Assembly: GCF_003790525.1 (NCBI RefSeq)
Contig: NZ_CP033635.1
Length of the DNA: 64,000 bases
Source of the DNA: Escherichia coli
GTDB lineage: Bacteria > Pseudomonadota > Gammaproteobacteria > Enterobacterales > Enterobacteriaceae
Strand: one strand, 5' to 3'
The translations under genes and the position numbers were made by a program. This document shows, piece by piece, positions 2 through 22,727 of this stretch (position 1 is the stretch's first letter; each line of letters opens with the position of its first letter). A model generated the notes under the pieces. That model saw nothing but the letters and a program-made list of their open reading frames with translations. It ran no database searches and had not been told where the DNA came from.

Positions 2-235
2 ATTACAGCTAATTCCGATCGAACTGCAGAGATGGTAATGCATTCCTGCGGTATTGTGACTCTCCTGAAGCCACATCTGGGATATAAGGTGTGTTCTGAA
101 ATGGCGCACGAAGCATACCATACAGGCAAATCCCTCCATCAGATAGTGGTTGTCGAACGTAAGCTACTCACACAGGAAGAATGGGAGAAGACATTCAATC
201 TGGATAATCTGATTGCTCCGAAGTTCGAACAATAA
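2..235 (+). CDS. Aspartate ammonia-lyase/fumarase-family protein, C-terminal fragment (5' end outside window or truncated)
   Basis: Frame is open from window start; translation ...GIVTLLKPHLGYKVCSEMAHEAYHTGKSLHQIVVVERKLLTQEEW...NLIAPKFEQ matches the AspA/FumC C-terminal pattern as I recall it. Confidence 0.5.
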   Translation: MTANSDRTAEMVMHSCGIVTLLKPHLGYKVCSEMAHEAYHTGKSLHQIVVVERKLLTQEEWEKTFNLDNLIAPKFEQ

Positions 236-1199: not shown

Positions 1200-1650
1200 A
1201 TGCTCAGGTGGCCAAATTCAGTATGCCAGAACCAGAACATCTTGTGGTCAGGCAGAGGAAGAGCAAACTGTTACTGGACTCACTGCATGCGTGGATGGTG
1301 GAGAAAAATGCCACGCTGTCCAAAAATCCAGACTGGGAGAATGGTTCAGCTGTGTACTGAATCAGTGGGGCGCACTCTGTTATTACAGTGTTGACGGTCA
1401 GGCGGAGGCAGACATAATGCCGCGGAAAAAGCCCTTTGTGCCATCTGTCTCGGAAATAAAAACTTTATGTTCTTCGACGGCGAGCGCAGTGCACTGTTGT
1501 ATGGGCTTATCGGCACTTGCCTTCTGAACGACATTGATCCGGAAGAGTATCTGCGCCATATCCTGAGCGTACTGCCGGAATAACCTTCCAACCGTATTGA
1601 TGAACTCCTGCCATGGAACGTAGTTCTCACCAATAAATAAGCATCAATAT
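1200..1650 (+). mobile_element. IS66-family transposase (TnpC) 3' remnant, frameshifted
   Basis: Frames give LLLDSLHAWMVEKNATLSKNP, GNKNFMFFDGERSALLYGLIGTCLLNDIDPEEYLRHILSVLPE and NRIDELLPWNV, matching the C-terminal region of IS66-family TnpC across at least two frameshifts. Confidence 0.5.
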
Positions 1651-1778
1651 GATTCTCCATTAACGCTTACCTTTTCTCAGGCTATTTTTGATTTTTTTTG
1701 CTTTTCCCCGCCACTTTATGGTGATTATCACATCAATATACATCGACAGATATTAACGTAACTGAAGTGAGGTGAAGC

Positions 1779-2993
1779 ATGAAATTTGAACGCCATCATG
1801 AAATATTGAAACGACTCAGTAAATTCGGTTCTGTAAAAGTATCCGATCTGTCCAATAGCCTCAATGTAACGAAAGAAACTATTCGATCAGATCTTAATGA
1901 ACTTGCCAGACTTGGCTATCTGACTCGATGTCATGGCGGTGCTTTTATCGTCCTAGACTCGCTTGATACTATTGCGAAAAATGAAATCGCTTATGCGCTT
2001 GAAAATTATGATACAGCCCAGGGAATAAAAAAAGGCCACTCAACTATGAAAAGTCAAGTATGCGTTATTGGTTCGTTTAATGTTGATATCATCAGTTATT
2101 TGCCGAGGCTTCCCACTATCGGAGAATCGCTTCTGGCAAGTAATTTTATATTTTCACCGGGGGGAAAAGGTTGTAACCAAGCGCTGGCAGCAAGCTTTGC
2201 CGATACTGATGTTTATTTCATAACAAAAGTAGGTACAGATCACTTTAGTGATTATGCGATCAACTTTATGAATTCGTCTAAGATTTATAAAAGTATAATT
2301 TATCAAACGAAAGAAACGCAAACCGGAACTGCCACGATCCTTGTTAATGAAGGTACTGGCGATAATGTTATTGCGATCTATCCCGGTGCCAACATGACAA
2401 TGTCGTCCGATGAAATAACTATTCAGAAAGAAGCGATTATTAATTCTGATGTCATACTTCTGCAGCTCGAAACAAATTATACCGCTCTGCAACAAGCGAT
2501 CACATTGGCGCAAAAAAACAGTATCCCGGTCATTATTAACCCGGCACCCTATAATGATATCGTCAACGAACTTATTCAGGATGTTGATTATATCACCCCC
2601 AATGAAACAGAAGCTGGTTTACTGTCCGGCATAGACGTACACGATCTTGAATCAGCTAAACGAGCTGCAGAAGCTATCCACAATAAAGGGGTAAAAAACA
2701 CGGTTATCACGCTCGGTAGCAAGGGCTCACTCGCATTTGATGGCAAAAAATTCATTCATTCGCCAGCGTTTCCAGCGGTCGTTAAAAATACGGCAGGAGC
2801 CGGGGATGCTTTTAACGGCGCTCTGGCATCAGGACTTGCGAAAGGAAAATCACTGGAATCAGCACTGTGTTATGCCAGTGCCTTTGCATCCCTGGCGGTG
2901 GAGACAAGCAATGCTTCCGACATGCCTGAACATGAATCTGTGATACATCGAATTCAGAGTATACATTATCAGCAAACTATTTTTACGCATTAA
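1779..2993 (+). CDS. DeoR-type HTH domain fused to PfkB/ribokinase-family sugar kinase
   Basis: 404-aa ORF; N-terminus HEILKRLSKFGSVKVSDLSNSLNVTKETIRSDLNEL is DeoR-like; C-terminus has PfkB features (GGKGCNQA, NTAGAGDAFNGALA). Confidence 0.75.
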   Translation: MKFERHHEILKRLSKFGSVKVSDLSNSLNVTKETIRSDLNELARLGYLTRCHGGAFIVLDSLDTIAKNEIAYALENYDTAQGIKKGHSTMKSQVCVIGSFNVDIISYLPRLPTIGESLLASNFIFSPGGKGCNQALAASFADTDVYFITKVGTDHFSDYAINFMNSSKIYKSIIYQTKETQTGTATILVNEGTGDNVIAIYPGANMTMSSDEITIQKEAIINSDVILLQLETNYTALQQAITLAQKNSIPVIINPAPYNDIVNELIQDVDYITPNETEAGLLSGIDVHDLESAKRAAEAIHNKGVKNTVITLGSKGSLAFDGKKFIHSPAFPAVVKNTAGAGDAFNGALASGLAKGKSLESALCYASAFASLAVETSNASDMPEHESVIHRIQSIHYQQTIFTH

Positions 2994-3006
2994 GAAGGGA
3001 CAGAGA

Positions 3007-3765
3007 ATGAATAACACCAAAAAATCACTAAAGGTGCTCTTTATTGGAGAATCCTGGCATATTCATATGATTCATTCAAAAGGATATGACAGTTTTACCT
3101 CAAGTAAATATGAAGAAGGTGCGACCTGGTTACTCCAATGTCTGAAAAATAGTCAGGTAGATGTCACCTATATGCCGGCACATACGGTACAAATTGCCTT
3201 CCCTGAAGATGTGGCACAGTTAGAACAATATGATGCCATCGTTATTAGTGATATTGGTAGTAATACTTTCCTGCTACAAAATGATACTTTTTATCAGCTT
3301 CGCATAAAACCAAACGCTCTCGAACTGATTAAAGAATATGTGAATAACGGTGGTGGGTTATTGATGATTGGCGGCTATCTCTCATTCATGGGAATTGAAG
3401 CAAAAGCCAATTATAAAAATACAGTTCTGGCTGATGTGCTCCCGGTTACGATGTTAGATGGTGACGATCGTGTCGAAAAACCAGAGGGTGTTATTGCACA
3501 GCCATCACAACCTGACCATCCGGTTATTAAAGGGTTCTCTGAATATCCTTTTTTCCTAGGTTATAACCGGGCGATCGCTAAAGAAAATGCTGAGGTGGTA
3601 TTAACAATAAACAACGATCCATTACTGGTCTTTGGTAACTATCACAACGGGAAAATAGCCTGCTTTATGAGTGACTGTTCACCGCACTGGGGTACACAGC
3701 AGTTTATGTCCTGGCCGTTCTATACCGCGTTGTGGGTAAATATACTGACTCATATTGCAAGATAA
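3007..3765 (+). CDS. Class I glutamine amidotransferase-like (ThuA/DUF1355-type) protein
   Basis: 252-aa ORF 14 bp after the upstream gene; motif NNGGGLLMIGGYLSF suggests a GATase1-like fold; family assignment tentative. Confidence 0.55.
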   Translation: MNNTKKSLKVLFIGESWHIHMIHSKGYDSFTSSKYEEGATWLLQCLKNSQVDVTYMPAHTVQIAFPEDVAQLEQYDAIVISDIGSNTFLLQNDTFYQLRIKPNALELIKEYVNNGGGLLMIGGYLSFMGIEAKANYKNTVLADVLPVTMLDGDDRVEKPEGVIAQPSQPDHPVIKGFSEYPFFLGYNRAIAKENAEVVLTINNDPLLVFGNYHNGKIACFMSDCSPHWGTQQFMSWPFYTALWVNILTHIAR

Positions 3766-3821
3766 TAATAATAATGGGGTAACACCAGTTACTCCATTTA
3801 CTATAATAGAAGGATTGATGT

Positions 3822-4787
3822 ATGAAAAAGAATAAGTACTCAACTCCCTTATGGATGCTTGCCACGATTCTTGCGGGTATGCTCTCCCCTATGCAATCAG
3901 CGGTGAATGGTCAATTAGGTCACTGGTTACAGGACGGTAATGCATGCGCAGTTATCTCCTTTGCCAGTGGTTTAGTCGTGATGTTTTTTATTATTATGGC
4001 GCGAAAAGAAACCCGGCAACAATTTGCGGCAATTCCTTCTCTGATTAAAAACCGAAAAGTTCCTCTCTGGAACTGGTTTGCCGGTCTCTGTGGAGCGATG
4101 GTGGTATTTTCTGAAGGCGCATCAGCCAGCGCACTCGGGGTCGCAACGTTTCAGACCGCACTGATCTCCGCGCTATTGCTGTCTGGTTTACTTTGCGATC
4201 GCTTTGGTATCGGTGTCGACGAGAAAAAATACTTTACCCCTTATCGCATCATCGGTGCATTATTTGCGGTTATTGCTACGATTTTTGTTGTGTCACCGCA
4301 GTGGCATTCTACCTCTTTCATTTTACTTGCCATTCTTCCGTTCTTAGCTGGTTTGCTTGCAGGATGGCAGCCCGCTGGAAATGCAAAAGTAGCTGAAGCT
4401 ACGGGATCCATGCTGGTTTCAATCACCTGGAATTTCATCGTTGGATTTTGTGTTTTAGGCACAGCGCTAGCTATTCGTGTCGCATTAGGGCACGTCACTG
4501 TTCAATTACCAGATGTCTGGTGGATGTATCTTGGCGGCCCGCTTGGACTAATGTCTATCGGTTTAATGGCCATTTTGGTCAGAGGTCTTGGGTTACTGAT
4601 GCTGGGGGTTGCTTCAACGGCGGGCCAGTTACTGGGATCAGTATTGATTGACGTATTAATTCCATCGCTGGGCAATACCGTTTATCTGGTCACGATCATC
4701 GGAACACTGTTTGCACTGGTCGGTGCAATTGTTACCACTATTCCGGAATACAGAGCCTCGAAAACAATGAAGAAAATGGAGGTATAA
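3822..4787 (+). CDS. Polytopic inner-membrane protein (tandem DUF606/YdcZ-like, DMT-superfamily-like)
   Basis: 321-aa ORF with about 10 hydrophobic segments and an internal two-fold repeat; RBS-like aggattg upstream. Confidence 0.6.
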   Translation: MKKNKYSTPLWMLATILAGMLSPMQSAVNGQLGHWLQDGNACAVISFASGLVVMFFIIMARKETRQQFAAIPSLIKNRKVPLWNWFAGLCGAMVVFSEGASASALGVATFQTALISALLLSGLLCDRFGIGVDEKKYFTPYRIIGALFAVIATIFVVSPQWHSTSFILLAILPFLAGLLAGWQPAGNAKVAEATGSMLVSITWNFIVGFCVLGTALAIRVALGHVTVQLPDVWWMYLGGPLGLMSIGLMAILVRGLGLLMLGVASTAGQLLGSVLIDVLIPSLGNTVYLVTIIGTLFALVGAIVTTIPEYRASKTMKKMEV

Positions 4788-4789
4788 TC

Positions 4790-5824
4790 ATGAAAGATTA
4801 TCTACAAACTGTGACGGGCCCCGTCGCCCGTGAAGATATGGGGCTAACACTTCCTCATGAACATCTGTTCAACGATCTTTCCTCTGTTGTGGATGCTCCT
4901 TGCTATCCTTTTTCACAACGGCTTGTTGATAAAAAAGTCACGGCAGAAATCCAGTGGGCATTAAAACACGATCCTTATTGCTGCGCTGATAATATGGACC
5001 GCAAACCTATTGAAGATGTGATCTTCGAAATTAATAACTTTATCTCGCTCGGTGGTCGCACCATTGTTGATGCCACAGGGTCTGAGTCTATCGGACGAGA
5101 TGCGCAGGCATTACGAGAAGTCGCATTAAAAACAGGTCTGAATATTGTTGCTTCCTCCGGTCCCTACCTGGAAAAATTTGAAAGCCAGAGAATTCATAAA
5201 ACGGTTGATGAACTAGCGACAACGATCGATAAAGAATTGAATCAAGGGATTGGCGATACGGATATTCGTGCCGGAATGATCGGTGAAATAGGTGTCTCAC
5301 CGACATTTACCGAAGCCGAGCATAACAGCTTGCGGGCTGCCTCGCTGGCACAGATTAACAATCCTCATGTGGCGATGAATATTCACATGCCGGGCTGGCT
5401 TCGTCGCGGTGATGAAGTACTCGACATTGTGTTAGGTGAAATGGGCGTCTCGCCAAATAAAGTCTCTCTCGCACACTCGGATCCGTCAGGAAAAGACGTG
5501 GCGTATCAGCGGAAAATGCTTGATAAAGGTGTCTGGCTGGAATTCGACATGATTGGCCTAGACATTACCTTCCCGAAAGAGGGAATAGCGCCAGGGGTGC
5601 AGGAGACTGCCGATGCCGTCGCTCATCTCATTGAGTTGGGATACGCCGATCAGCTTGTTCTCAGCCACGATGTCTTCCTTAAACAAATGTGGGCTAAAAA
5701 TGGCGGTAATGGCTGGGGATTTGTTCCAGATGTTTTTCTGGCCTATCTGGCGGAGCGCGGCGTCGATAAAACGATCCTCAAAAAACTCTGTATCGATAAT
5801 CCCGGACGATTATTGACCGCATAA
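4790..5824 (+). CDS. Phosphotriesterase-family (PTE/Php-like) metal-dependent hydrolase
   Basis: 344-aa ORF; N-terminal metal-binding motif TLPHEHL typical of the PTE family; starts 3 bp after the upstream gene. Confidence 0.8.
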   Translation: MKDYLQTVTGPVAREDMGLTLPHEHLFNDLSSVVDAPCYPFSQRLVDKKVTAEIQWALKHDPYCCADNMDRKPIEDVIFEINNFISLGGRTIVDATGSESIGRDAQALREVALKTGLNIVASSGPYLEKFESQRIHKTVDELATTIDKELNQGIGDTDIRAGMIGEIGVSPTFTEAEHNSLRAASLAQINNPHVAMNIHMPGWLRRGDEVLDIVLGEMGVSPNKVSLAHSDPSGKDVAYQRKMLDKGVWLEFDMIGLDITFPKEGIAPGVQETADAVAHLIELGYADQLVLSHDVFLKQMWAKNGGNGWGFVPDVFLAYLAERGVDKTILKKLCIDNPGRLLTA

Positions 5825-5833
5825 AACCATTAT

Positions 5834-5856
5834 CCCCCGGCACATTGCGCCGGGGG
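5834..5856. terminator. Hairpin between convergent PTE gene and ggt fragment
   Basis: cccccggc-acattgc-gccggggg perfect inverted repeat directly after the PTE stop. Confidence 0.4.
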
Positions 5857-5863
5857 ATGTCAA

Positions 5864-6202
5864 TTAATACCCCGCCGTTAAATCATCCACCAAGCGCGAG
5901 TCGGATGCGCCGTACAACTCACCATCCGACCCAACCATAATGCTTTGCGTGCTGCCCATCGCCTCATTCAGCGCCACTTTCTGACCTTTTGCTTCCAGCA
6001 GCTTGAGCGTATCCGGACTAAACCCTTTTCAACACGCAGCTCGTCCGGCAACCACTGATGGTGGAAACGAGGCGCATTGGTCGCTTCGGCAACATTCATT
6101 CCACAATTGATGCTGTTCACCACCATTTGCGGCACGGTAGTGATGATCCAGCTACCGGTAACAAAGTGAGTACATAAAGGCCATACTGTCACGAACAGTG
6201 CA
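5864..6202 (-). pseudogene. gamma-glutamyltranspeptidase (ggt-like) C-terminal fragment, truncated by ISL3-family insertion and frameshifted
   Basis: Minus-strand translation ...NAPRFHHQWLPDELRVEKG... and ...GSTQSIMVGSDGELYGASD...DDLTAGY-stop matches the GGT C-terminus; N-terminal ~80% is absent. Confidence 0.6.
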
Positions 6203-7936
6203 AAAGTGGCTCTTCCTCAACCTAGGTGAAGATTTTCATGCCAGTGGACTCATTACCCTCCGCCTAAGTAGTTCAAGTCCGGCTCGACCATACATCTGGC
6301 GTATCAGCACCTTCAGGCGATTTACATGACCTTCGACAACACCAGTACTCCAGCGACTGCTGATTGCCTCACATATAGCCGCAGCATCAGCTTCCATCCC
6401 CGCAGCTACGCACCGAAGTTCTGCTGAGCCGCTTTCGTGGACCCGAGTGAACCAGCTGCTTAGCTGTGATTTATTTTAGGTTTTCAGAATACGGTAGAAC
6501 TCGAGTACCAGTTGCTGCGCTATTTTCAACTCCGGTTCTTTTTCACACATCAGACTAATAAATCGGAAAGCATAATTTTCTCCACCCCTGATTATTCTCC
6601 AGGGCATCAACCAGCGGCTTACCCGGGACACTGAAGGAAGTCTTGCGGCAGTAGTAACCGGTGGGATCCAGCCTTTATGCCATTTGGCAACAGCATCCCT
6701 GACGATGGTTTCACTGCCTGTAACCCCCCTGGCCACCATTTCCCGCCATATCCGGCCGGAGTTATAATTACCACATTCTCGTTGCTCTTTTAACCACTCC
6801 CTCCATGGGTCCAGAAGCCCTCGCTTTGGAGGCCTGGTTGACATTTCAGGGAATGTTCCTGAACCCACCCAGCGACTGACTGTCACTCGCGACAGGCCTG
6901 TAATACGGGATATTTCCCTGAAACTACATCCCTTGTTATGCAGGGCCATAACCTCTGTCCAACGCTGATGCCGTTTTTTGCGGATGTGCTGTTTAAGGCG
7001 TTCCAGACGACGGAGCGATGCTACAGGCACAGATATTTCTGGCTCAGGTGATTTCTTCAGTGATAACTCTCTGACAACAAGACGTATCAGAGGCATATGT
7101 CTGTACATCATTCGTTCAGGCTCATCACCAATATTTTTTAGCAGGTGCCATCGATCGGCCACCTGTCTGGCCTGAGGTGCACCTTCACGTGCTGCTGTCG
7201 CATAGACTCCACTGCGATCACGCGAGACAACCTGTATTTCCGGATATTTTCTGAACCAGGTCGCCAGCGTACGCTGATCACGGCCGGGAAGCAGGACGAG
7301 GGGACGGTGAGTATCAGGATTGACTATTAACATACCGCAGCAGTGGCCCCGATGCCACGCCCACTCATCAATACCGACATGAGGCGCGCCTGACTGTTTC
7401 GTCTCCGGGGTATTGATAAGCCTGCGAAGAAGAGTATCAGCACTGCAACGGAGACCCACTGCCGTTGCAGCCCGTTTTCCAGCCTCACCTCCAGCTATTA
7501 ATCCCAGTTGACATTGTTAATTTTGTAACGCCTGTGAAGACTGCTGGTGTGAACTGGCGAAGGGAGCAAGCGACTCGGCAAAAATTTTACGTGAACAAGC
7601 CGGGTTACGGCAGTACCAGTGGCGGACGGAAAATACAAGCCATAGCGTCTGCCCTGAGCAGGGTAGATGCTGTATCCGGCGCCGACGACAACTATGAACA
7701 GAGTCGCTACGCTTAAAGCATTCAGGACATTGTGCTGTTTTGCGTTTTCCGTGGAGATGGAGGGTTATACCGTCAGAGCTAATAATTTGTCGACTGCATC
7801 GCCATCCGCAAGGTAACTGTAGAAGTGTCTTAAGAGAGTGCATTGCGTTGCCCATAACTTAAAACAGCTTAGATCCTTGTTCGCCAGAAAGTTTCATCCA
7901 TTTTCTTCCACCCAGGTTGCGGAAGAACCACTTTTC
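6203..7936 (-). mobile_element. ISL3-family insertion sequence (~1.73 kb) with ~30-bp imperfect terminal inverted repeats
   Basis: Left end aaaagtggctcttcctcaacctaggtg versus reverse complement of right end aaaagtggttcttccgcaacctgggtg (3 mismatches); internal ISL3-type transposase. Confidence 0.6.
6215..7855 (-). pseudogene. ISL3-family transposase, disrupted by at least two frameshifts
   Basis: Zn-finger N-terminus (7855-7517), DDE core GIDEWAWHRGH...SRDRSGVYATAAREGAPQARQVADRWHLLKN (7459-6476), and C-terminal STGVVEGHVNRLKVLIRQMYGRAGLELL in a third frame (about 6300-6215). Confidence 0.6.
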
Positions 7937-8138: not shown

Positions 8139-8546
8139 TCAGTTCCTATCCTTCCAGTTGCCCTCCTGCCCCCCCTCCCTGCTGTATACCCCGGTACCAC
8201 AACTCGGGCAGCACTTTTCCCCCTCATAATTTTCGTCACACATCACACAAAACCACTTTCTCACCTTCACCGTATAATCCGGAACCGTCATACCCTGCAG
8301 ATGCAAACGACGGGCCTCTTTCTCTGCCGGGTCAAGCCAGGTGCATCGCAGCAGGATTTTCTCAGCGACAGTCATCTGGTCATGTTCAAACCACGGTGGT
8401 TGTCCGTCATTGCCCCGCTGAAGTGTTAACGGGCATCCACAGGACACACAGCACAAAACGTCCTGGCGGTTGTGCTTCGCTGCTTCTTTCGCCGTAACAA
8501 AATGGCCTTTGCTGTCATTCGCCATATAACAGTTCAGAATTCGCAT
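8139..8546 (-). CDS. Cys-rich zinc-ribbon protein, hypothetical (paralog of upstream gene)
   Basis: CxxC pairs and a PWFEH motif shared with the adjacent gene; aggagg RBS just upstream of the ATG at 8546; start uncertain. Confidence 0.45.
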   Translation of the reverse strand: MRILNCYMANDSKGHFVTAKEAAKHNRQDVLCCVSCGCPLTLQRGNDGQPPWFEHDQMTVAEKILLRCTWLDPAEKEARRLHLQGMTVPDYTVKVRKWFCVMCDENYEGEKCCPSCGTGVYSREGGQEGNWKDRN

Positions 8547-8941
8547 ATTTCCTCCTGAGTTGTCCGGGGAATACTGAATCCTCCGGTCTGGCAGTGTGTG
8601 CAGTACCGCTCCCCATAATAATCGTGGTGACATTGTCTGCAGTGCCAGCTGGCTTTACGCACCACGGGTAAGGCATCCGGTACGAATTGCTGCAGACGTT
8701 TAATCAACTGTATTTCTCTGCGCTCCGGCCTGACATAAGGGCACTGTTGACCGTGCTCTGTCAGCCTGTCGTCAGTGTGTTCAAACCAGGGAAGTTCAGT
8801 GTCGTATTGCGGATGGTATCTGAGTGCACTGCCACACAAGTGGCAGGTGTAGTTAGCATAAGGTGCGGCCTGTGCAGTACGGGCGCCCGTCAGACGTCCG
8901 TTGCCATCAAGAGCGATAAAGGATTTTGCGTACATAGTCAT
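8534..8941 (-). CDS. Cys-rich zinc-ribbon protein, hypothetical
   Basis: 135-aa ORF with CHLCG, CRQCH, CTHCQ pairs and a PWFEH motif. Confidence 0.5.
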   Translation of the reverse strand: MTMYAKSFIALDGNGRLTGARTAQAAPYANYTCHLCGSALRYHPQYDTELPWFEHTDDRLTEHGQQCPYVRPERREIQLIKRLQQFVPDALPVVRKASWHCRQCHHDYYGERYCTHCQTGGFSIPRTTQEEICEF

Positions 8942-18361: not shown

Positions 18362-20758
18362 ATGCACGAAAAGAACATCGCCCTGCTTTGTGATGAAGCC
18401 GACCGACTTTTGCAACTGAACATTAATCTGCTCCGGCAAATGGTTGAGGAGCCAGATGTGTTATCTGACAGTAAGAACGAAAACAGACTGCTTTTTGATA
18501 AACAGAAAGCACTGAAAAGAATTGAGGAGCTGGAGGGCGAACAAATCAAAACCGCCCGCAGGGAGATGGTGCTGGCTGTTGTCGGCACGATGAAAGCAGG
18601 CAAATCAACCACCATCAACGCCATTGTGGGGCAGGAAATTCTGCCTAACCGTAACCGCCCCATGACCTCTGTACCGACGCTCATCCGCCACGTTCCCGGA
18701 AAAACTGAGCCGGTTCTCCATCTGGAACATATTCAGCCTGTCCGCAATTTATTAATCACACTGCAGGAAAAACTCGCCACCCCGGCAGGACAGCAGGTCG
18801 CACAGACCCTGCAGCAAACCGGGGATACCCGCGAACTGCTGGATATTCTGACGGATGATGGCTGGCTCAAAAATGAATACCACGGGGAGGAGGAAATCTT
18901 TACCGGACTGGCATCGTTAAACGATCTGGTTCGTCTTGCTGCGGCAATGGGGACTGAATTTCCTTTTGATGAATACGCAGAAGTGCAGAAACTGCCGGTG
19001 ATCGACGTGGAATTCAGCCATCTGGTGGGGATGGATGCATGCCAGGGAACACTCACACTGCTGGATACCCCCGGCCCTAATGAGGCCGGACAACCGCAGA
19101 TGGAAGTGATGATGCGGGATCAACTGCAGAAAGCCTCTGCGGTTCTGGCTGTGATGGATTACACCCAGATGAACTCAAAAGCGGATGAAGACGTCCGTAA
19201 AGAGCTTAATGCCATTGCTGACGTATCAGCCGGCCGCCTGTTTGTACTGGTCAATAAATTTGATGAGAAAGACCGCAATGGCGATGGGGCAGATGCCGTA
19301 CGCCAGAAAGTTCCGGCAATGCTGAACAGCGATGTGCTGCCCGCCTCCCGCGTTTATCCCGGATCCTCACGCCAGGCATACCTGGCTAACCGTGCGCTTC
19401 ATGAGTTACGGAAAAACGGAACCCTTCCTGTTGATGAAGCCTGGGTCGATGATTTTATCAGAGGTGCCTTCGGTTGCATGAAAAAAGAATACGTCTGTAA
19501 AGACAGTGAACTGGCAACTGAAGGGGCGACAGACCTGTGGGAAGGCTCACTTATCGATCAACTGATAACGGAAGTCATACAGAGCTCACATTCCAGAGCT
19601 GCGGCACTGGCGGTTGACTCTGCCGCCGCAAAACTGATGCAGAATGCAGAAAATATCAGTGAATACCTGTTGTTACGCCATCAGGGGCTACAGCAAAGCA
19701 TTCAGTCACTGCAGTCGCATATCACCAGCCTGCTTGCGGATATCCGGGAAATCGCGGACTGTCAGGAGCAGATGACCACTGATGTCAGAATGGCCATGGA
19801 GGAGATCGATACTAAAACCCGGGAATTACTGACGGGGGTCTGCACCTCACTGGAAGAGGAGCTGAATGACTATTTCAGAAGCGGTAAACGCAAAGAACAG
19901 CAAATGCTGGAGGAAGAAGACGCAGAACAACGAAGGTCTCAGTCCGGATTATGGGGGAAAATTTCTCAATGGTCCGGTATCAACAACCAGGGCCGGGAGG
20001 ATTACAGGAAACGAGATTTTGCCCCGGACAGCCCCGAAATAAAATTCAGTGATCGCAGGGAAGCCCTTGAACTGATGACGCAAATCGAATCGACCGTGAC
20101 CAGCCTGCACCGTGAGGCTGAAGCACAGTTCCGGCCTGAGCTGGAGAAAATCGTCAGCGGGATTGAAACAGGTTTTCGTGGCACGGCCCTGTACGCCACA
20201 GAAAACATTGCCGGTCGCATCAATGCCCGCCTGGAGGATGAGGGCTTTACCGTAAAAATCAGTTTTCCGGCAGTCAGCCAGTTACAGACCCGGCTCGCGG
20301 TAAAAATAAATCTGAGTGCGCTTATGGAGGAAAGAACGGAGACCGTCACCCGTCGCCGTCGGCAGAGTGGCGTATGGGGAACCGTTTGTCGATGGTTTGG
20401 CACCAGTGACCTGGGCTGGGAAAACTATGACGAGGATGTGAGTCGCAGCGTGATCAATATCAACAAGGTCAGAGAGGAAGTTATGTCACTGACCCGGGCA
20501 TATTTCGGGGAGCTGCAGGCATCCATTGAGCAGGATATTAACCAGCCCGTCCGCCAGGAAATCGATGCCTTTTTCTGCGCATTCAGGGAGAAAGTTGAAC
20601 AACTGCGTAACACGCTGATTCAGAGCTCTGAAGATCATAAACGCGATCAGCAGGCGCAGGAACGGCTTACCGGGCGACTTCAGGCATTAAATGAAAGGGT
20701 TCCTGAGCTCATTACTGACAGTAAGGCGCTGAGGGAAGAGCTGGAGACAATGCTGTGA
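18362..20758 (+). CDS. Bacterial dynamin-like GTPase, CrfC/YjdA-like
   Basis: 798 aa; G1 GTMKAGKST, G3 DTPGPNE, G4 NKFD; N-terminal block REMVLAVVGTMKAGKSTTINAIVGQEILPNRNRPMT matches E. coli CrfC as recalled; long helical C-terminal stalk; RBS aggaagg. Confidence 0.9.
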   Translation: MHEKNIALLCDEADRLLQLNINLLRQMVEEPDVLSDSKNENRLLFDKQKALKRIEELEGEQIKTARREMVLAVVGTMKAGKSTTINAIVGQEILPNRNRPMTSVPTLIRHVPGKTEPVLHLEHIQPVRNLLITLQEKLATPAGQQVAQTLQQTGDTRELLDILTDDGWLKNEYHGEEEIFTGLASLNDLVRLAAAMGTEFPFDEYAEVQKLPVIDVEFSHLVGMDACQGTLTLLDTPGPNEAGQPQMEVMMRDQLQKASAVLAVMDYTQMNSKADEDVRKELNAIADVSAGRLFVLVNKFDEKDRNGDGADAVRQKVPAMLNSDVLPASRVYPGSSRQAYLANRALHELRKNGTLPVDEAWVDDFIRGAFGCMKKEYVCKDSELATEGATDLWEGSLIDQLITEVIQSSHSRAAALAVDSAAAKLMQNAENISEYLLLRHQGLQQSIQSLQSHITSLLADIREIADCQEQMTTDVRMAMEEIDTKTRELLTGVCTSLEEELNDYFRSGKRKEQQMLEEEDAEQRRSQSGLWGKISQWSGINNQGREDYRKRDFAPDSPEIKFSDRREALELMTQIESTVTSLHREAEAQFRPELEKIVSGIETGFRGTALYATENIAGRINARLEDEGFTVKISFPAVSQLQTRLAVKINLSALMEERTETVTRRRRQSGVWGTVCRWFGTSDLGWENYDEDVSRSVININKVREEVMSLTRAYFGELQASIEQDINQPVRQEIDAFFCAFREKVEQLRNTLIQSSEDHKRDQQAQERLTGRLQALNERVPELITDSKALREELETML

Positions 20759-21660
20759 CTTCACCATTTATTCAACAAATTGCTGATAACCGGGTATGTC
20801 AGGTACTCACCTGTCTTCCTGAAAAATTTGTGGTTGATTTCGCAAACGGAATCGATGTTGCACAGGAGCATATCCGCACGGCCGGAGAGCGCACGTTCTT
20901 CCGGCGTTTAAAAGAGGGGCTGACCGGCGAAGGCGCTGCACGGCAGAATGCCATCAATGCGTCGCTTGCACAGGGCGTTGAGGCGTCCCTGCGCTGGCTG
21001 ACGGAGATGACAACGTCACTTGCCACCACAAACTACGCGATTACCCGGGTAAACGACAGGGTCAGTTCACTGGTCAGTGATACAGCCAGGCTGGCGCATT
21101 ATTCCGCAGATACGCGGGAGCAGTTACTCACCCTGGCCGATCAGGTTCACCATAAACTGAATCATCTTGAAGAAAAACTCCACCGTGTTGACCAGGTTCA
21201 GCGGGCGCAGTTACATCTTGAGCAGATATTCTCATGGTGGAGCGCCGGGCGATATGCGTCATTTTCCCCTGCCGGACGTTGTTATGTGGCACTTGAAGAG
21301 CTTCGCTGGGGCGCGTTTGGTGATGTGATACGTCAGAGCGAAACAGGCCAGGTTAACCAGCTACTGGATATTCTCAGACATAAAGCATTAACGCAGATGG
21401 CACAGGAGAGTGGCGGTAGTGCAACCGTGCGTCTGAACACTCTGGACTGGCTTGGTGGTCAGGGCCGGGAGCAGGCAGATAACGAGTGGCATGACGCGAT
21501 TAACTGGCTGGGAGACTGGTGCAGTGAAGAGCAGCATCCGGTGATCTGGTCAACCACGCAGGCTGCAGAACACTTACCGGTTCGCATGCCTCGCCTCTGC
21601 TCTGCAGAACGCCTCTCTGAAAGTATGGTCGATGAAATATTTCAGAAGGGGGCTGCATGA
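20755..21660 (+). CDS. Dynamin partner protein (YjcZ-like, by synteny with crfC-yjcZ)
   Basis: 301-aa ORF; GTG start overlaps the dynamin stop (GTGA); mostly helical; family assignment rests on position, not recalled sequence. Confidence 0.7.
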   Translation: MTSPFIQQIADNRVCQVLTCLPEKFVVDFANGIDVAQEHIRTAGERTFFRRLKEGLTGEGAARQNAINASLAQGVEASLRWLTEMTTSLATTNYAITRVNDRVSSLVSDTARLAHYSADTREQLLTLADQVHHKLNHLEEKLHRVDQVQRAQLHLEQIFSWWSAGRYASFSPAGRCYVALEELRWGAFGDVIRQSETGQVNQLLDILRHKALTQMAQESGGSATVRLNTLDWLGGQGREQADNEWHDAINWLGDWCSEEQHPVIWSTTQAAEHLPVRMPRLCSAERLSESMVDEIFQKGAA

Positions 21661-22727
21661 GTACAGAAATGAAAACGGGGCTGGTGCTGTCCGGTGGCGG
21701 GGCGGTGGGCGCTTATCAGGCGGGAGTGGTTAAGGCACTGGCAGAGTGTGGTACACAGATCAGCATGGTTTCAGGGGCCAGCATTGGCGCATTCAATGGT
21801 GCCATTATCGCGGCCTCTACCGATCTGTCAGAAGCTGCCGTACGCCTGGAGGCGCTCTGGGATCATCTGGGGAATAATCAGGTGCTGTCGGTAAACAGAT
21901 TGGTTTACTTTTCATTGCTGAAAAAATTGTTCCAGGCAATGAACCTCTGCCAGATCCCCGGACGTGCAGGAGCACTGCTTACGACGCTTCTTCGCCATAT
22001 ATCGACAATCAACGGGTTTGACAATCTGATGGCTCAGCCGTTGTTGTCAGATGAGCCCCTGACAGCGCTGATGGATCATTATCTTGATACTGATGCTCTG
22101 GCAGACGGGCTACCGCTGTATGTGTCGCTGTACCCCACAGAAGGGGGCATGCAGGATATTATTGACTGCATTCGTGCTGAACTGGGTGTCGGAACCACGA
22201 AAAACGCCGTTTTTCAGCATATCCAGAGCCTGCCCCGCGGACAGCAGAAAGAGGCTCTGCTTGCGTCAGCCGCGCTGCCCCTGCTGTTCCGTCCCCGTGA
22301 GGTTCAGGGGACAATGTTCGGTGATGGTGGTATGGGAGGATGGCGAAATATGCAGGGAAATACCCCTGTGACGCCTCTGGTCGATGCCGGATGCAATATG
22401 GTGATTGTGACGCATCTGAGTGACGGTTCTTTATGGGATCGCCAGGCTTTTCCGGACACCACAATCCTTGAGATCCGTCCCCGGAAAAGGCTGAAATATG
22501 CAGGTGATGGTGGCAACAGCGGCGGTCTGCTCAGTTTTACATCGGCACATACCGACGCCTGGCGTCAGCAGGGCTATGAAGACACGATGCTGGCGATGGA
22601 GCATATCCGGAAACCGCTGGCAGCACGTCAGGCACTGACCCGGTCAGAGGCGGTATTGCAGAAAAGCCTGGATATAACGGAAGAGGCAGATTTGGCACTG
22701 AGAAACGCGATGGCCCGGATTAAATAA
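21657..22727 (+). CDS. Patatin-like phospholipase
   Basis: 356 aa; Gly-rich oxyanion SGGGAVGAYQAG, lipase GxSxG as GASIG, catalytic Asp in FGDGGM; ATG overlaps the upstream stop (ATGA). Confidence 0.85.
   Translation: MSTEMKTGLVLSGGGAVGAYQAGVVKALAECGTQISMVSGASIGAFNGAIIAASTDLSEAAVRLEALWDHLGNNQVLSVNRLVYFSLLKKLFQAMNLCQIPGRAGALLTTLLRHISTINGFDNLMAQPLLSDEPLTALMDHYLDTDALADGLPLYVSLYPTEGGMQDIIDCIRAELGVGTTKNAVFQHIQSLPRGQQKEALLASAALPLLFRPREVQGTMFGDGGMGGWRNMQGNTPVTPLVDAGCNMVIVTHLSDGSLWDRQAFPDTTILEIRPRKRLKYAGDGGNSGGLLSFTSAHTDAWRQQGYEDTMLAMEHIRKPLAARQALTRSEAVLQKSLDITEEADLALRNAMARIK

What the first reader, a model, noticed from the sequence alone, without database searches (positions are those of the whole stretch)
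1779..5824. Metabolic islet led by a DeoR-HTH / PfkB-kinase fusion
Four tightly spaced same-strand genes: a DeoR-type HTH fused to a ribokinase-family kinase, a GATase1-like protein, a DUF606-type membrane protein and a phosphotriesterase-family hydrolase. A regulator fused to a sugar kinase suggests a one-component sensor that couples phosphorylation or binding of an unknown sugar or lactone to control of the downstream transporter and hydrolase. It is flanked by IS debris, so it is accessory.
Basis: partly seen in the sequence, partly recalled or inferred. Interest (0 to 1): 0.4.

Follow-up and report, generated by a model that had tools for sequence, protein, structure and literature searches.

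The report
E. coli copy of rikA operon
This is the E. coli version of a four-gene Salmonella cluster published in 2026 (rikA to STM3550), whose first gene joins a DNA-binding domain to a ribose kinase; the genes are real, mobile and conserved, but what compound they process and whether the first gene regulates them are still untested.

Summary
Four intact same-strand genes lie at exactly the stated coordinates, with the stated domains. The window is E. coli chromosome. The islet is accessory: it is complete in 1907 of 5426 complete genomes and bounded by IS debris.

It is not new. It is the orthologue (74-93% protein identity, same gene order) of Salmonella STM3547-STM3550. STM3547 was published in 2026 as RikA, a ribose kinase. 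That paper names the same neighbours, the predicted DeoR domain and conservation in Escherichia.

The "one-component sensor" reading is partly supported.
- **For:** the helix-turn-helix (HTH) part is as conserved as the kinase across 97 full-length homologues. It is under purifying selection and has a strong ribosome-binding site.
- **For:** a 60-nt upstream DNA element recurs before related fusion genes that lead quite different operons. It was also recovered at 4 of 4 held-out loci.
- **For:** Firmicutes versions of the cluster carry a separate LacI regulator instead of the fused HTH.
- **Against:** in Salmonella the protein purified from a native-signal construct began at Met90 and had no HTH.

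Every ribose-contacting residue of RbsK is kept. Sister operons pair this kinase with nucleoside or ADP-ribosyl hydrolases. My best reading is therefore uptake and hydrolysis of an unidentified ribose conjugate, not an unknown sugar or lactone.

The parts
1684..1741 (+). Conserved upstream DNA element, a candidate operator/promoter. It has T-rich units in 10-nt phase (G at 1690, 1700 and 1710), then TATG (1717-1720) and the palindrome GTGA-TTA-TCAC (1721-1731).
   Evidence: About 85% identical to Salmonella, while sequence further upstream is unrelated and synonymous sites are saturated. It aligns across 12 loci, including operons with different cargo. An nhmmer profile hits only here in the window, at 1681-1741. 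No Rfam match and no consensus RNA structure.
1754..1759 (+). TAACGT, a candidate -10 hexamer (inferred).
   Evidence: The TAnnnT skeleton is invariant or nearly so at alignment columns 83-88 in 12 loci. No transcription start data are available.
1769..1774 (+). Shine-Dalgarno sequence GAGGTG for the annotated Met1 start.
   Evidence: Anti-SD duplex of -9.2 kcal/mol, in the top 0.7% of positions in the gene. It is strong in all 8 loci tested.
1779..2993 (+). rikA orthologue, 404 aa: DeoR-type winged HTH (aa 1-57, nt 1779-1949), variable linker (aa 58-89, nt 1950-2045), ribokinase domain (aa 90-404, from the in-frame ATG at 2046).
   Evidence: Pfam and NCBIfam. 80% identical to STM3547/RikA. 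The AlphaFold model gives two confident domains and a linker with pLDDT below 50. All RbsK ribose and ATP residues are kept, including D343, which matches RbsK D255.
3007..3765 (+). PF07090 'GATase1-like' protein, orthologue of STM3548.
3773..3798 (+). Intercistronic hairpin directly after the stop codon of gene 2.
   Evidence: -13.5 kcal/mol. A hairpin at the same place but with a different sequence occurs in Salmonella, Providencia and Klebsiella. A promoter-like site at 3779-3807 overlaps it.
3822..4787 (+). Duplicated DMT_YdcZ membrane transporter, orthologue of STM3549.
   Evidence: Pfam PF04657, two repeats. 93% identical to Salmonella, pN/pS 0.05.
4790..5824 (+). Phosphotriesterase-family hydrolase, orthologue of STM3550 and of Proteus mirabilis Pmi1525.
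   Evidence: 74% identical, without gaps, to PDB 3RHG/4QSF. The motif residues H23, H25, E166, H199, H229 and D294 are identical.
5831..5859 (.). Strong hairpin between the hydrolase gene and the ggt remnant; a likely shared terminator.
   Evidence: -22.4 kcal/mol. It was flagged as terminator-like on the minus strand.
5862..6147 (-). 3' fragment of a foreign ggt gene, which marks the right end of the transferred segment.
   Evidence: 84% identical to the ggt that converges on STM3550 in Salmonella. Collinear homology with the Salmonella locus runs from 1684 to 6147. Pfam G_glu_transpept.
1223..1583 (+). IS66-family transposase fragment, the left boundary debris.
   Evidence: RefSeq annotation of the identical SMS-3-5 sequence.
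6236..7855 (-). ISL3-family transposase pseudogene, the right boundary debris.
   Evidence: RefSeq annotation; ORFs.

Best explanation
The islet is a horizontally acquired E. coli copy of the Salmonella rikA-STM3548-STM3549-STM3550 cluster. I propose it is a salvage module for an unidentified ribose-containing conjugate.

Proposed steps:
1. The DMT protein imports the compound.
2. The phosphotriesterase-family esterase and the PF07090 protein remove the non-sugar part.
3. The kinase domain of gene 1 phosphorylates the freed ribose to ribose 5-phosphate.
4. The full-length product of gene 1, presumably a dimer like RbsK, uses its DeoR-type HTH to bind the conserved element at 1684-1741. Ribose or ATP binding to the kinase domain would modulate this, making it the operon's own regulator.

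Shown: gene identities and orthology; ribose kinase activity of the 80%-identical orthologue (published); conservation of the HTH and of the upstream element.

Inferred: DNA binding, direction of transport, roles of genes 2 and 4, and the nature of the substrate.
For: **Orthology.** Protein identities to Salmonella are 81, 81, 93 and 87%, the order is identical and a ggt neighbour is retained. The same four genes occur in Providencia, Klebsiella and Orbus.

**Kinase.** RikA supports growth on ribose from its chromosomal copy, with Km 2.0 mM, and D343 is essential (PMC13432705). All RbsK ribose and ATP contacts are invariant.

**The HTH is real.**
- 14 HTH residues are invariant in 16 sequences down to 46% identity.
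- Mean conservation is 0.63 for the HTH, 0.69 for the kinase and 0.39 for the linker across 97 homologues.
- dN/dS is about 0.19.
- The Met1 ribosome-binding site is strong in 8 of 8 loci.
- The winged-helix fold is predicted with confidence.
- The SPI-2-adjacent paralogue orf408 has no Met at position 90, so only the long form is possible there.

**Operator.** A profile trained on 8 loci finds 4 of 4 held-out fusion loci at the same offset. Only one other hit had E below 1 in 1.27 Mb.

**Regulator slot.** Firmicutes clusters have LacI > kinase > PF07090 with no fused HTH.

**Ribose-release logic.** Sister fusion genes lead operons that carry nucleoside hydrolase plus a nucleoside or MFS transporter, or ADP-ribosylglycohydrolase plus an ABC importer.

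**Import and ester or amide cleavage.** Firmicutes versions use RbsBAC-type importers. The hydrolase slot is filled by PTE, an M20 peptidase or an alpha/beta hydrolase in different clusters.
Against: - In Salmonella, the protein purified from a construct with native upstream sequence was about 35 kDa and consistent with a start at Met90, with no HTH.
- No DNA binding, induction or transcript data exist.
- RikA kcat is about 80-fold lower than that of RbsK, and the paper's authors suggest ribose may be an off-target substrate.
- The YdcZ family is labelled a putative exporter in Pfam.
- PF07090 has no known activity and lacks the expected catalytic Cys.
- Pmi1525 is known only as a promiscuous esterase (plus my own knowledge of the 2015 paper).
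- A third sister-operon type (DHDPS, DUF386, MFS) does not obviously release ribose.
Confidence: 0.55

Rival explanations
1. Dual-product gene. Met1 yields a low-abundance HTH-kinase regulator, and an internal start at codon 90 yields the bulk kinase-only enzyme. This refines the main explanation rather than excluding it.
For: - A 35-kDa Met90 product was seen in Salmonella.
- Position 90 is Met in 82 and Val in 10 of 97 homologues, although the surrounding linker is variable.
- The Providencia Val codon is GTG.
- Purine-rich SD-like sequences precede codon 90. They are strong in Providencia, S. bongori, Gilliamella and Rahnella. Fisher combined p is 0.0007 over 8 loci, which are not fully independent.
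Against: - The internal SD is weak in E. coli and Salmonella themselves (-3.2 and -3.4 kcal/mol, about the 20th percentile).
- orf408 has no Met there.
- The Met could be a relic of the ancestral kinase start.
- The 35-kDa band could arise from cleavage in the disordered linker.
Confidence: 0.3
2. The HTH-coding part is not expressed. Gene 1 is simply a third ribokinase that starts at Met90, and some other factor regulates the cluster.
For: Only the short protein was recovered. RikA(90-404) fully supports growth on ribose.
Against: The HTH shows purifying selection and invariant residues, stays in frame across 97 homologues, has a strong Met1 SD everywhere, and is accompanied by a conserved upstream element shared with paralogous operons.
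Confidence: 0.1
3. Ribose is an off-target substrate. The kinase and the cluster act on a different sugar, sugar lactone or sugar-amino acid conjugate. This is the suggestion of the first reader and of the 2026 paper.
For: - kcat is low relative to RbsK.
- The TIGR02152 ribokinase score of 285 falls just under the 299.65 cut-off.
- PTE-family members include phospho-sugar lactonases, though the match to NF045706 is weak.
- An amino-acid permease and an M20 peptidase occur in related clusters.
Against: - Every RbsK ribose-contact residue is invariant, even in the Firmicutes kinases.
- Km for ribose equals that of RbsK.
- Deoxyribose, xylose and xylulose are poor substrates, and L-arabinose is not phosphorylated.
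- Sister operons contain ribose-releasing hydrolases.
Confidence: 0.25
4. A detoxification and export module for organophosphate or other xenobiotic esters, made of a phosphotriesterase and an exporter.
For: The family names (PTE; YdcZ 'putative exporter'). Pmi1525 hydrolyses methylphosphonate esters (PDB names; my own knowledge).
Against: The cluster is invariably linked to a ribokinase. Related clusters use binding-protein-dependent importers. The kinase plus PF07090 pair is conserved across phyla.
Confidence: 0.05

Closest known systems
Salmonella Typhimurium RikA (STM3547) and the STM3547-STM3550 cluster (Mol Microbiol 2026, PMC13432705)
   Same: Orthologous, with the same four genes in the same order and the same ggt neighbour. 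The protein is 404 aa with the DeoR HTH, Met90 and D343 in the same positions. The paper itself lists Escherichia among the carriers.
   Different: The E. coli copy sits in an IS-bounded piece of a CP4-44-like island rather than at the yhhY-ggt locus. Nucleotide identity is only 76%. Nothing has been tested in E. coli.
E. coli RbsK ribokinase with its separate regulator RbsR
   Same: The kinase fold and all ribose, ATP and catalytic residues are shared; E 2e-52 to PDB 1GQT.
   Different: RbsK has no DNA-binding domain and its regulator is a separate LacI-type protein. Here a DeoR-type HTH is fused to the kinase, and the cargo genes are unrelated to rbsDACB.
DeoR-family repressors (DeoR, GlpR, AgaR)
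   Same: The N-terminal HTH_DeoR domain is shared. The T-rich repeated upstream element recalls the repeated operators of this family (my own knowledge).
   Different: The DeoR_C sugar-phosphate sensor domain is absent and is replaced by a complete, catalytically competent kinase.
Enzyme-regulator fusions ('trigger enzymes') such as NadR, BirA and PutA, and the ROK repressors Mlc and NagC (own knowledge)
   Same: They follow the same logic: a DNA-binding domain joined to an enzyme or kinase-like domain that senses the metabolite.
   Different: The folds and families differ, and no regulatory function has been demonstrated here.
Pmi1525 of Proteus mirabilis (PDB 3RHG, 4QSF) and Rsp3690 (3K2G)
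   Same: 74% identical to Pmi1525, with identical metal-ligand motifs.
   Different: Only promiscuous esterase and methylphosphonate esterase activities are known. The natural substrate is unknown for both.
STM3548 (PDB 2GK3) and STM1381 (PDB 3SOZ), family PF07090
   Same: 81% identical to STM3548 and, by the alignment, roughly 65% to STM1381. The class-I amidotransferase-like fold is shared.
   Different: No function is known for either. The name 'glutamine amidotransferase' reflects the fold only.

Membership tests
RikA / STM3547-3550 cluster | Full-length orthology of gene 1 to STM3547 | tested here: met
   80% identity over 404 of 404 aa
RikA / STM3547-3550 cluster | Synteny with the PF07090, DMT_YdcZ and PTE genes | tested here: met
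   Collinear blastn from 1684 to 6147, including the ggt remnant
RikA / STM3547-3550 cluster | Ribose kinase activity | not testable with these tools
   Shown for the Salmonella protein only
Ribokinase (PfkB family, EC 2.7.1.15) | PfkB domain with the catalytic Asp and the GAGD anion hole | tested here: met
   PF00294 E 4e-65; A341-G342-D343
Ribokinase (PfkB family, EC 2.7.1.15) | RbsK ribose-contact residues (N14, D16, G41-G42-K43, N46, E143) | tested here: met
   N101, D103, G128-G129-K130, N133 and E231 are all conserved
Ribokinase (PfkB family, EC 2.7.1.15) | NCBIfam equivalog cut-off | tested here: not met
   TIGR02152: 285.4 bits against 299.65. NF008353: 255 bits against 341
DeoR-family transcription regulator | N-terminal HTH_DeoR domain | tested here: met
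   PF08220 E 2.6e-15, aa 5-56; winged-helix model
DeoR-family transcription regulator | C-terminal DeoR_C effector domain | tested here: not met
   No PF00455 hit; PfkB occupies aa 92-382
DeoR-family transcription regulator | Sequence-specific DNA binding and regulation | not testable with these tools
   Only indirect evidence: the conserved upstream element
Class I glutamine amidotransferase | Nucleophile Cys at the elbow after the central strand, with a His-Glu pair | tested here: not met
Phosphotriesterase family (PF02126), Pmi1525 subgroup | PTE domain with the HxH, Glu, His, His, Asp metal-ligand pattern | tested here: met
   E 7.5e-47. H23, H25, E166, H199, H229 and D294 are identical to 3RHG
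Phosphotriesterase family (PF02126), Pmi1525 subgroup | Esterase or phosphonate-esterase activity | not testable with these tools
   Reported for Pmi1525
Enzyme-fused one-component regulator ('trigger enzyme') | DNA-binding domain and a competent enzyme domain in one translated polypeptide | tested here: inconclusive
   Sequence, selection and ribosome-binding-site evidence favour it. The only protein-level experiment saw the short form
Four-gene operon | Co-transcription of all four genes | tested here: inconclusive
   Gaps of 13, 56 and 2 nt and a conserved order favour it. A conserved hairpin and a promoter-like site lie between genes 2 and 3. BioCyc predicts two operons

The most novel reading that the evidence does not exclude
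HTH-ribokinase fusions form an unrecognised family of one-component regulators in Enterobacterales and Orbales. They share an operator and head operons that salvage ribose from different ribosyl compounds. The gene makes two proteins: a full-length autoregulator from Met1 and a kinase-only enzyme from an internal start at codon 90. The PF07090 protein, conserved at 60-66% identity between E. coli and Bacillales, is a new enzyme that, together with an interchangeable esterase or peptidase, frees ribose from a still unknown natural conjugate.
Probability: 0.3. Interest if true: 0.55.

Novelty: already known. Interest (0 to 1): 0.3.

Why it matters
About a third of E. coli genomes carry this module, as do Salmonella, Citrobacter, Klebsiella, Providencia, Proteus and insect-gut Orbales. 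Salmonella has a second, related copy beside SPI-2.

Its substrate is unknown, and two of its proteins have crystal structures but no known physiological function. If the regulator role holds, the conserved operator and the kinase domain give a direct handle for finding the inducer and the natural substrate, for example a reporter fusion screened against ribosyl compounds. That would also assign a function to family PF07090.

As it stands, this is an ordinary accessory catabolic operon that has already been described.

Tried and rejected
- **Genome-contig scan.** I used the N-terminal alignment as query, but the patterns chosen were kinase motifs. It returned almost only ordinary ribokinases and just two fusion loci. 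It was rescued in part by tblastn, which found the Firmicutes clusters.
- **RNA element upstream?** Rfam gave no hit and RNAalifold gave zero pairs. I rejected this reading in favour of a DNA element.
- **Promoter assignment.** The consensus scan found nothing convincing at the conserved element. I could not place a -35 box, so the -10 call at 1754-1759 is tentative.
- **Literature on PF07090, 2GK3, 3SOZ and STM1381.** Nothing useful turned up.
- **Raushel-lab papers on Pmi1525 and Rsp3690.** They are not held in the library. Their content is cited from memory and from a citing paper.
- **Characterised DeoR-PfkB fusions.** A literature search found none.
- **True glutamine amidotransferase?** Rejected for gene 2.
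- **SPI-2 orf408 upstream region.** It shows a look-alike of the element by eye but does not score with the profile, so I did not count it.


Full report
**Observation**

Four ORFs lie at 1779-2993, 3007-3765, 3822-4787 and 4790-5824 on the + strand, separated by 13, 56 and 2 nt. Pfam assigns them as follows:
- Gene 1: HTH_DeoR (aa 5-56) plus PfkB (aa 92-382).
- Gene 2: GATase1_like (PF07090).
- Gene 3: two DMT_YdcZ repeats (PF04657, formerly DUF606).
- Gene 4: PTE (PF02126).

NCBIfam places the kinase just under the ribokinase equivalog cut-off, at 285 bits against 299.65.

**Where it comes from**

The segment is 100% identical to chromosomes of E. coli SMS-3-5 and many other strains. A complete copy is present in 1907 of 5426 complete genomes. 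It also occurs on an E. albertii plasmid and in a 1-Mb Klebsiella pneumoniae record filed in the plasmid collection.

The RefSeq annotation shows a transposase pseudogene and an IS66 fragment upstream, and a ggt 3' fragment and an ISL3 pseudogene downstream. All of this lies inside a CP4-44-like island beside the his and O-antigen loci.

Collinear homology with the Salmonella locus runs from window 1684 to 6147 at 76% nucleotide identity. It starts exactly at a conserved upstream element and ends inside the ggt fragment, which is 84% identical to Salmonella ggt. In Salmonella the cluster converges on an intact ggt. The E. coli islet is therefore a 4.5-kb piece lifted from such a context, and "accessory" is correct.

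**It is already described**

A 2026 paper (PMC13432705) names STM3547 RikA. Its findings:
- The chromosomal gene alone supports growth on ribose.
- Km is 2.0 mM for ribose and 50 µM for ATP; kcat is about 80-fold below that of RbsK.
- D343 is essential.
- Other pentoses are poor substrates.
- The paper notes the predicted DeoR domain at residues 2-57.
- It lists STM3548-3550 as a predicted amidotransferase, DMT transporter and phosphotriesterase of unknown function.
- It reports the cluster in Citrobacter, Escherichia, Budvicia and Proteus.

One result bears directly on the finding. Protein purified through a C-terminal tag from a construct with 278 bp of native upstream sequence was about 35 kDa, consistent with a start at Met90. 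RikA(90-404) sufficed for growth on ribose.

The E. coli proteins are about 81, 81, 93 and 87% identical to the Salmonella ones. Structures exist for close relatives of two of them. Gene 4 is 74% identical to Pmi1525 (PDB 3RHG, 4QSF). Gene 2 is 81% identical to STM3548 (PDB 2GK3).

**Is the fusion real?**

Comparative evidence says yes:
- The 397-412 aa HTH+PfkB architecture persists down to 46% identity in many Enterobacterales and Orbales.
- Fourteen HTH residues are invariant in 16 diverse sequences.
- Over 97 full-length homologues, mean column conservation is 0.63 in the HTH, 0.69 in the kinase and 0.39 in the linker.
- Between E. coli and Salmonella, the HTH has pN 0.118 against pS 0.443.
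- The Met1 start has a strong Shine-Dalgarno sequence in all eight loci examined. In E. coli it is -9.2 kcal/mol, in the top 0.7% of positions.
- AlphaFold gives a confident winged helix (aa 1-57), a confident kinase (aa 90-404) and a linker (aa 61-89) with pLDDT below 50.
- The SPI-2-adjacent paralogue orf408 has no Met at position 90.

At the same time, position 90 is Met in 82 and Val in 10 of the 97 homologues, although the neighbouring positions vary. The one Val codon I could read is GTG. SD-like sequences precede codon 90; they are weak in E. coli and Salmonella and strong in four other lineages (combined p 0.0007).

The published short product may therefore come from a real internal start, or from cleavage in the disordered linker. 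In either case the HTH is clearly under selection to be translated.

**A shared upstream DNA element**

Upstream of the fusion gene I found a roughly 60-nt element at window 1684-1741. It contains T-rich units in 10-nt phase, then TATG, then GTGA-TTA-TCAC.

It is about 85% identical between E. coli and Salmonella, although synonymous sites are saturated and the sequence further upstream is unrelated. It aligns at a fixed distance from the start codon in 12 loci. These include fusion genes whose downstream cargo is completely different.

A profile trained on eight loci found four of four held-out fusion loci at the expected position, with E values of 0.002, 0.004, 0.014 and 1.7. Only one other hit had E below 1 in 1.27 Mb, and there was a single hit in the window. 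There is no Rfam match and no consensus RNA structure.

The simplest reading is an operator, overlapping the promoter, recognised by the conserved HTH. This is inference; no binding data exist. A TAnnnT at 1754-1759 is a candidate -10 hexamer.

**What the family context says**

The fusion gene is always the first gene of its operon. Downstream cargo takes several forms:
- The PF07090, DMT and PTE trio, in Salmonella, Providencia, Klebsiella and Orbus.
- Nucleoside hydrolase with a NupC or MFS transporter, in a Salmonella mobile element and in Gilliamella.
- An ABC importer with an ADP-ribosylglycohydrolase, in S. bongori.
- DHDPS-family lyase, DUF386 and MFS, in Rahnella, Pectobacterium and Tatumella.
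- Beside SPI-2: PF07090, an alpha/beta hydrolase and an amino-acid permease.

In Firmicutes the kinase has no HTH, and the order is:
- LacI > kinase > PF07090 > RbsB/A/C-like importer > PTE in Oceanobacillus.
- LacI > kinase > PF07090 > M20 peptidase > importer in Brevibacillus.

Four things follow:
1. The kinase plus PF07090 pair is the conserved core across phyla.
2. The transporter slot is filled by importers.
3. The hydrolase slot is filled by three unrelated ester- or amide-cleaving families.
4. A dedicated regulator sits where the HTH is fused in Enterobacterales.

All RbsK ribose and ATP residues are invariant in every one of these kinases.

**The other proteins**

PF07090 is extraordinarily conserved, at 60-66% identity between E. 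coli and Bacillales. It has Tyr124 where the amidotransferase nucleophile is expected, and an invariant SDCxPHW motif. Its nearest structural relatives outside the family are ThuA-like proteins and the middle domains of GH42 and lacto-N-biose phosphorylase. True amidotransferases are further away. The "glutamine amidotransferase" label reflects the fold only.

The PTE protein keeps the HxH, E, H, H, D pattern identical to Pmi1525. Pmi1525 is known only as a metal-dependent esterase.

A hairpin directly after the gene 2 stop codon is present with different sequences in four genera. A promoter-like site overlaps it. Expression of genes 3 and 4 may therefore be partly uncoupled from genes 1 and 2, as BioCyc's two-operon prediction suggests. 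A strong hairpin follows gene 4.

**Most likely mechanism (confidence about 0.55)**

A ribose-bearing ester or amide conjugate is imported. The PTE-family esterase and the PF07090 protein process it, and the released ribose is phosphorylated by gene 1. The full-length form of gene 1 autoregulates the operon through the upstream element in response to ligand binding in the kinase domain.

Rivals:
- A dual-isoform refinement (0.3).
- The true substrate is not ribose (0.25).
- The HTH is never made (0.1).
- Xenobiotic detoxification and export (0.05).

**Verdict**

The feature itself is already in the literature, and its physiological role is still open.

Within the searchable library I found no prior report of three points made here. 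They need bench confirmation:
- The operator-like element.
- The "leader of ribose-salvage operons" pattern.
- The LacI-for-HTH substitution in Firmicutes.

Interest is 0.3.

Noticed in passing
window 18362-22727 (+): Three overlapping genes annotated as a dynamin-family protein (798 aa), an RdcB-family protein (301 aa) and a patatin-like phospholipase (356 aa). They lie in the same CP4-44-like island and look like a defence-type module.
   Followed up: no
window 8139-8941 (-): Two overlapping zinc-ribbon proteins lie next to an inovirus Gp2-family gene, just beyond the ISL3 pseudogene.
   Followed up: no
window 32-235 (+): A 67-aa ORF matches the fumarase/aspartase C-terminal domain (PF10415). 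It appears to be the severed 3' end of the aspartate ammonia-lyase-like gene interrupted by an IS3 element just upstream of the window.
   Followed up: partly
window 1779-2140 (codons 1-120 of gene 1): Synonymous divergence from Salmonella is much lower here (pS 0.37-0.55) than in the rest of the gene (0.64-1.07). The cause is unexplained; it could be selection on the mRNA around the two starts or a recombination tract.
   Followed up: no
window 3773-3798: A hairpin follows the gene 2 stop codon. It is conserved in position but not in sequence in Salmonella, Providencia and Klebsiella, and absent in Orbus. It may be a partial terminator or a stabiliser.
   Followed up: partly
L095 6763-11055: A Salmonella paralogous cluster lies between ttrBCA and pykF (the old SPI-2 'orf408/orf245/orf32/orf48'): HTH-PfkB, PF07090, alpha/beta hydrolase, amino-acid permease. 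The logic is the same but the hydrolase and transporter differ.
   Followed up: partly
L062 5941-12567; L033 3147-10849: Oceanobacillus and Brevibacillus clusters have a LacI regulator, a plain ribokinase, PF07090, an RbsBAC-like importer, and PTE or an M20 peptidase.
   Followed up: partly
L006, L092, L093 (genes downstream of the fusion gene): In Rahnella, Pectobacterium and Tatumella the fusion gene leads a DHDPS-family lyase, DUF386 and an MFS transporter. This resembles nanA, yhcH and nanT and suggests a keto-deoxy sugar acid whose cleavage yields a pentose.
   Followed up: no
L004 8001-14123: A 60%-identical fusion gene leads nucleoside hydrolase, NupC, MFS and M20 peptidase genes on a Salmonella element flanked by ccdAB, a resolvase and an integrase. 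The module is itself mobile.
   Followed up: no
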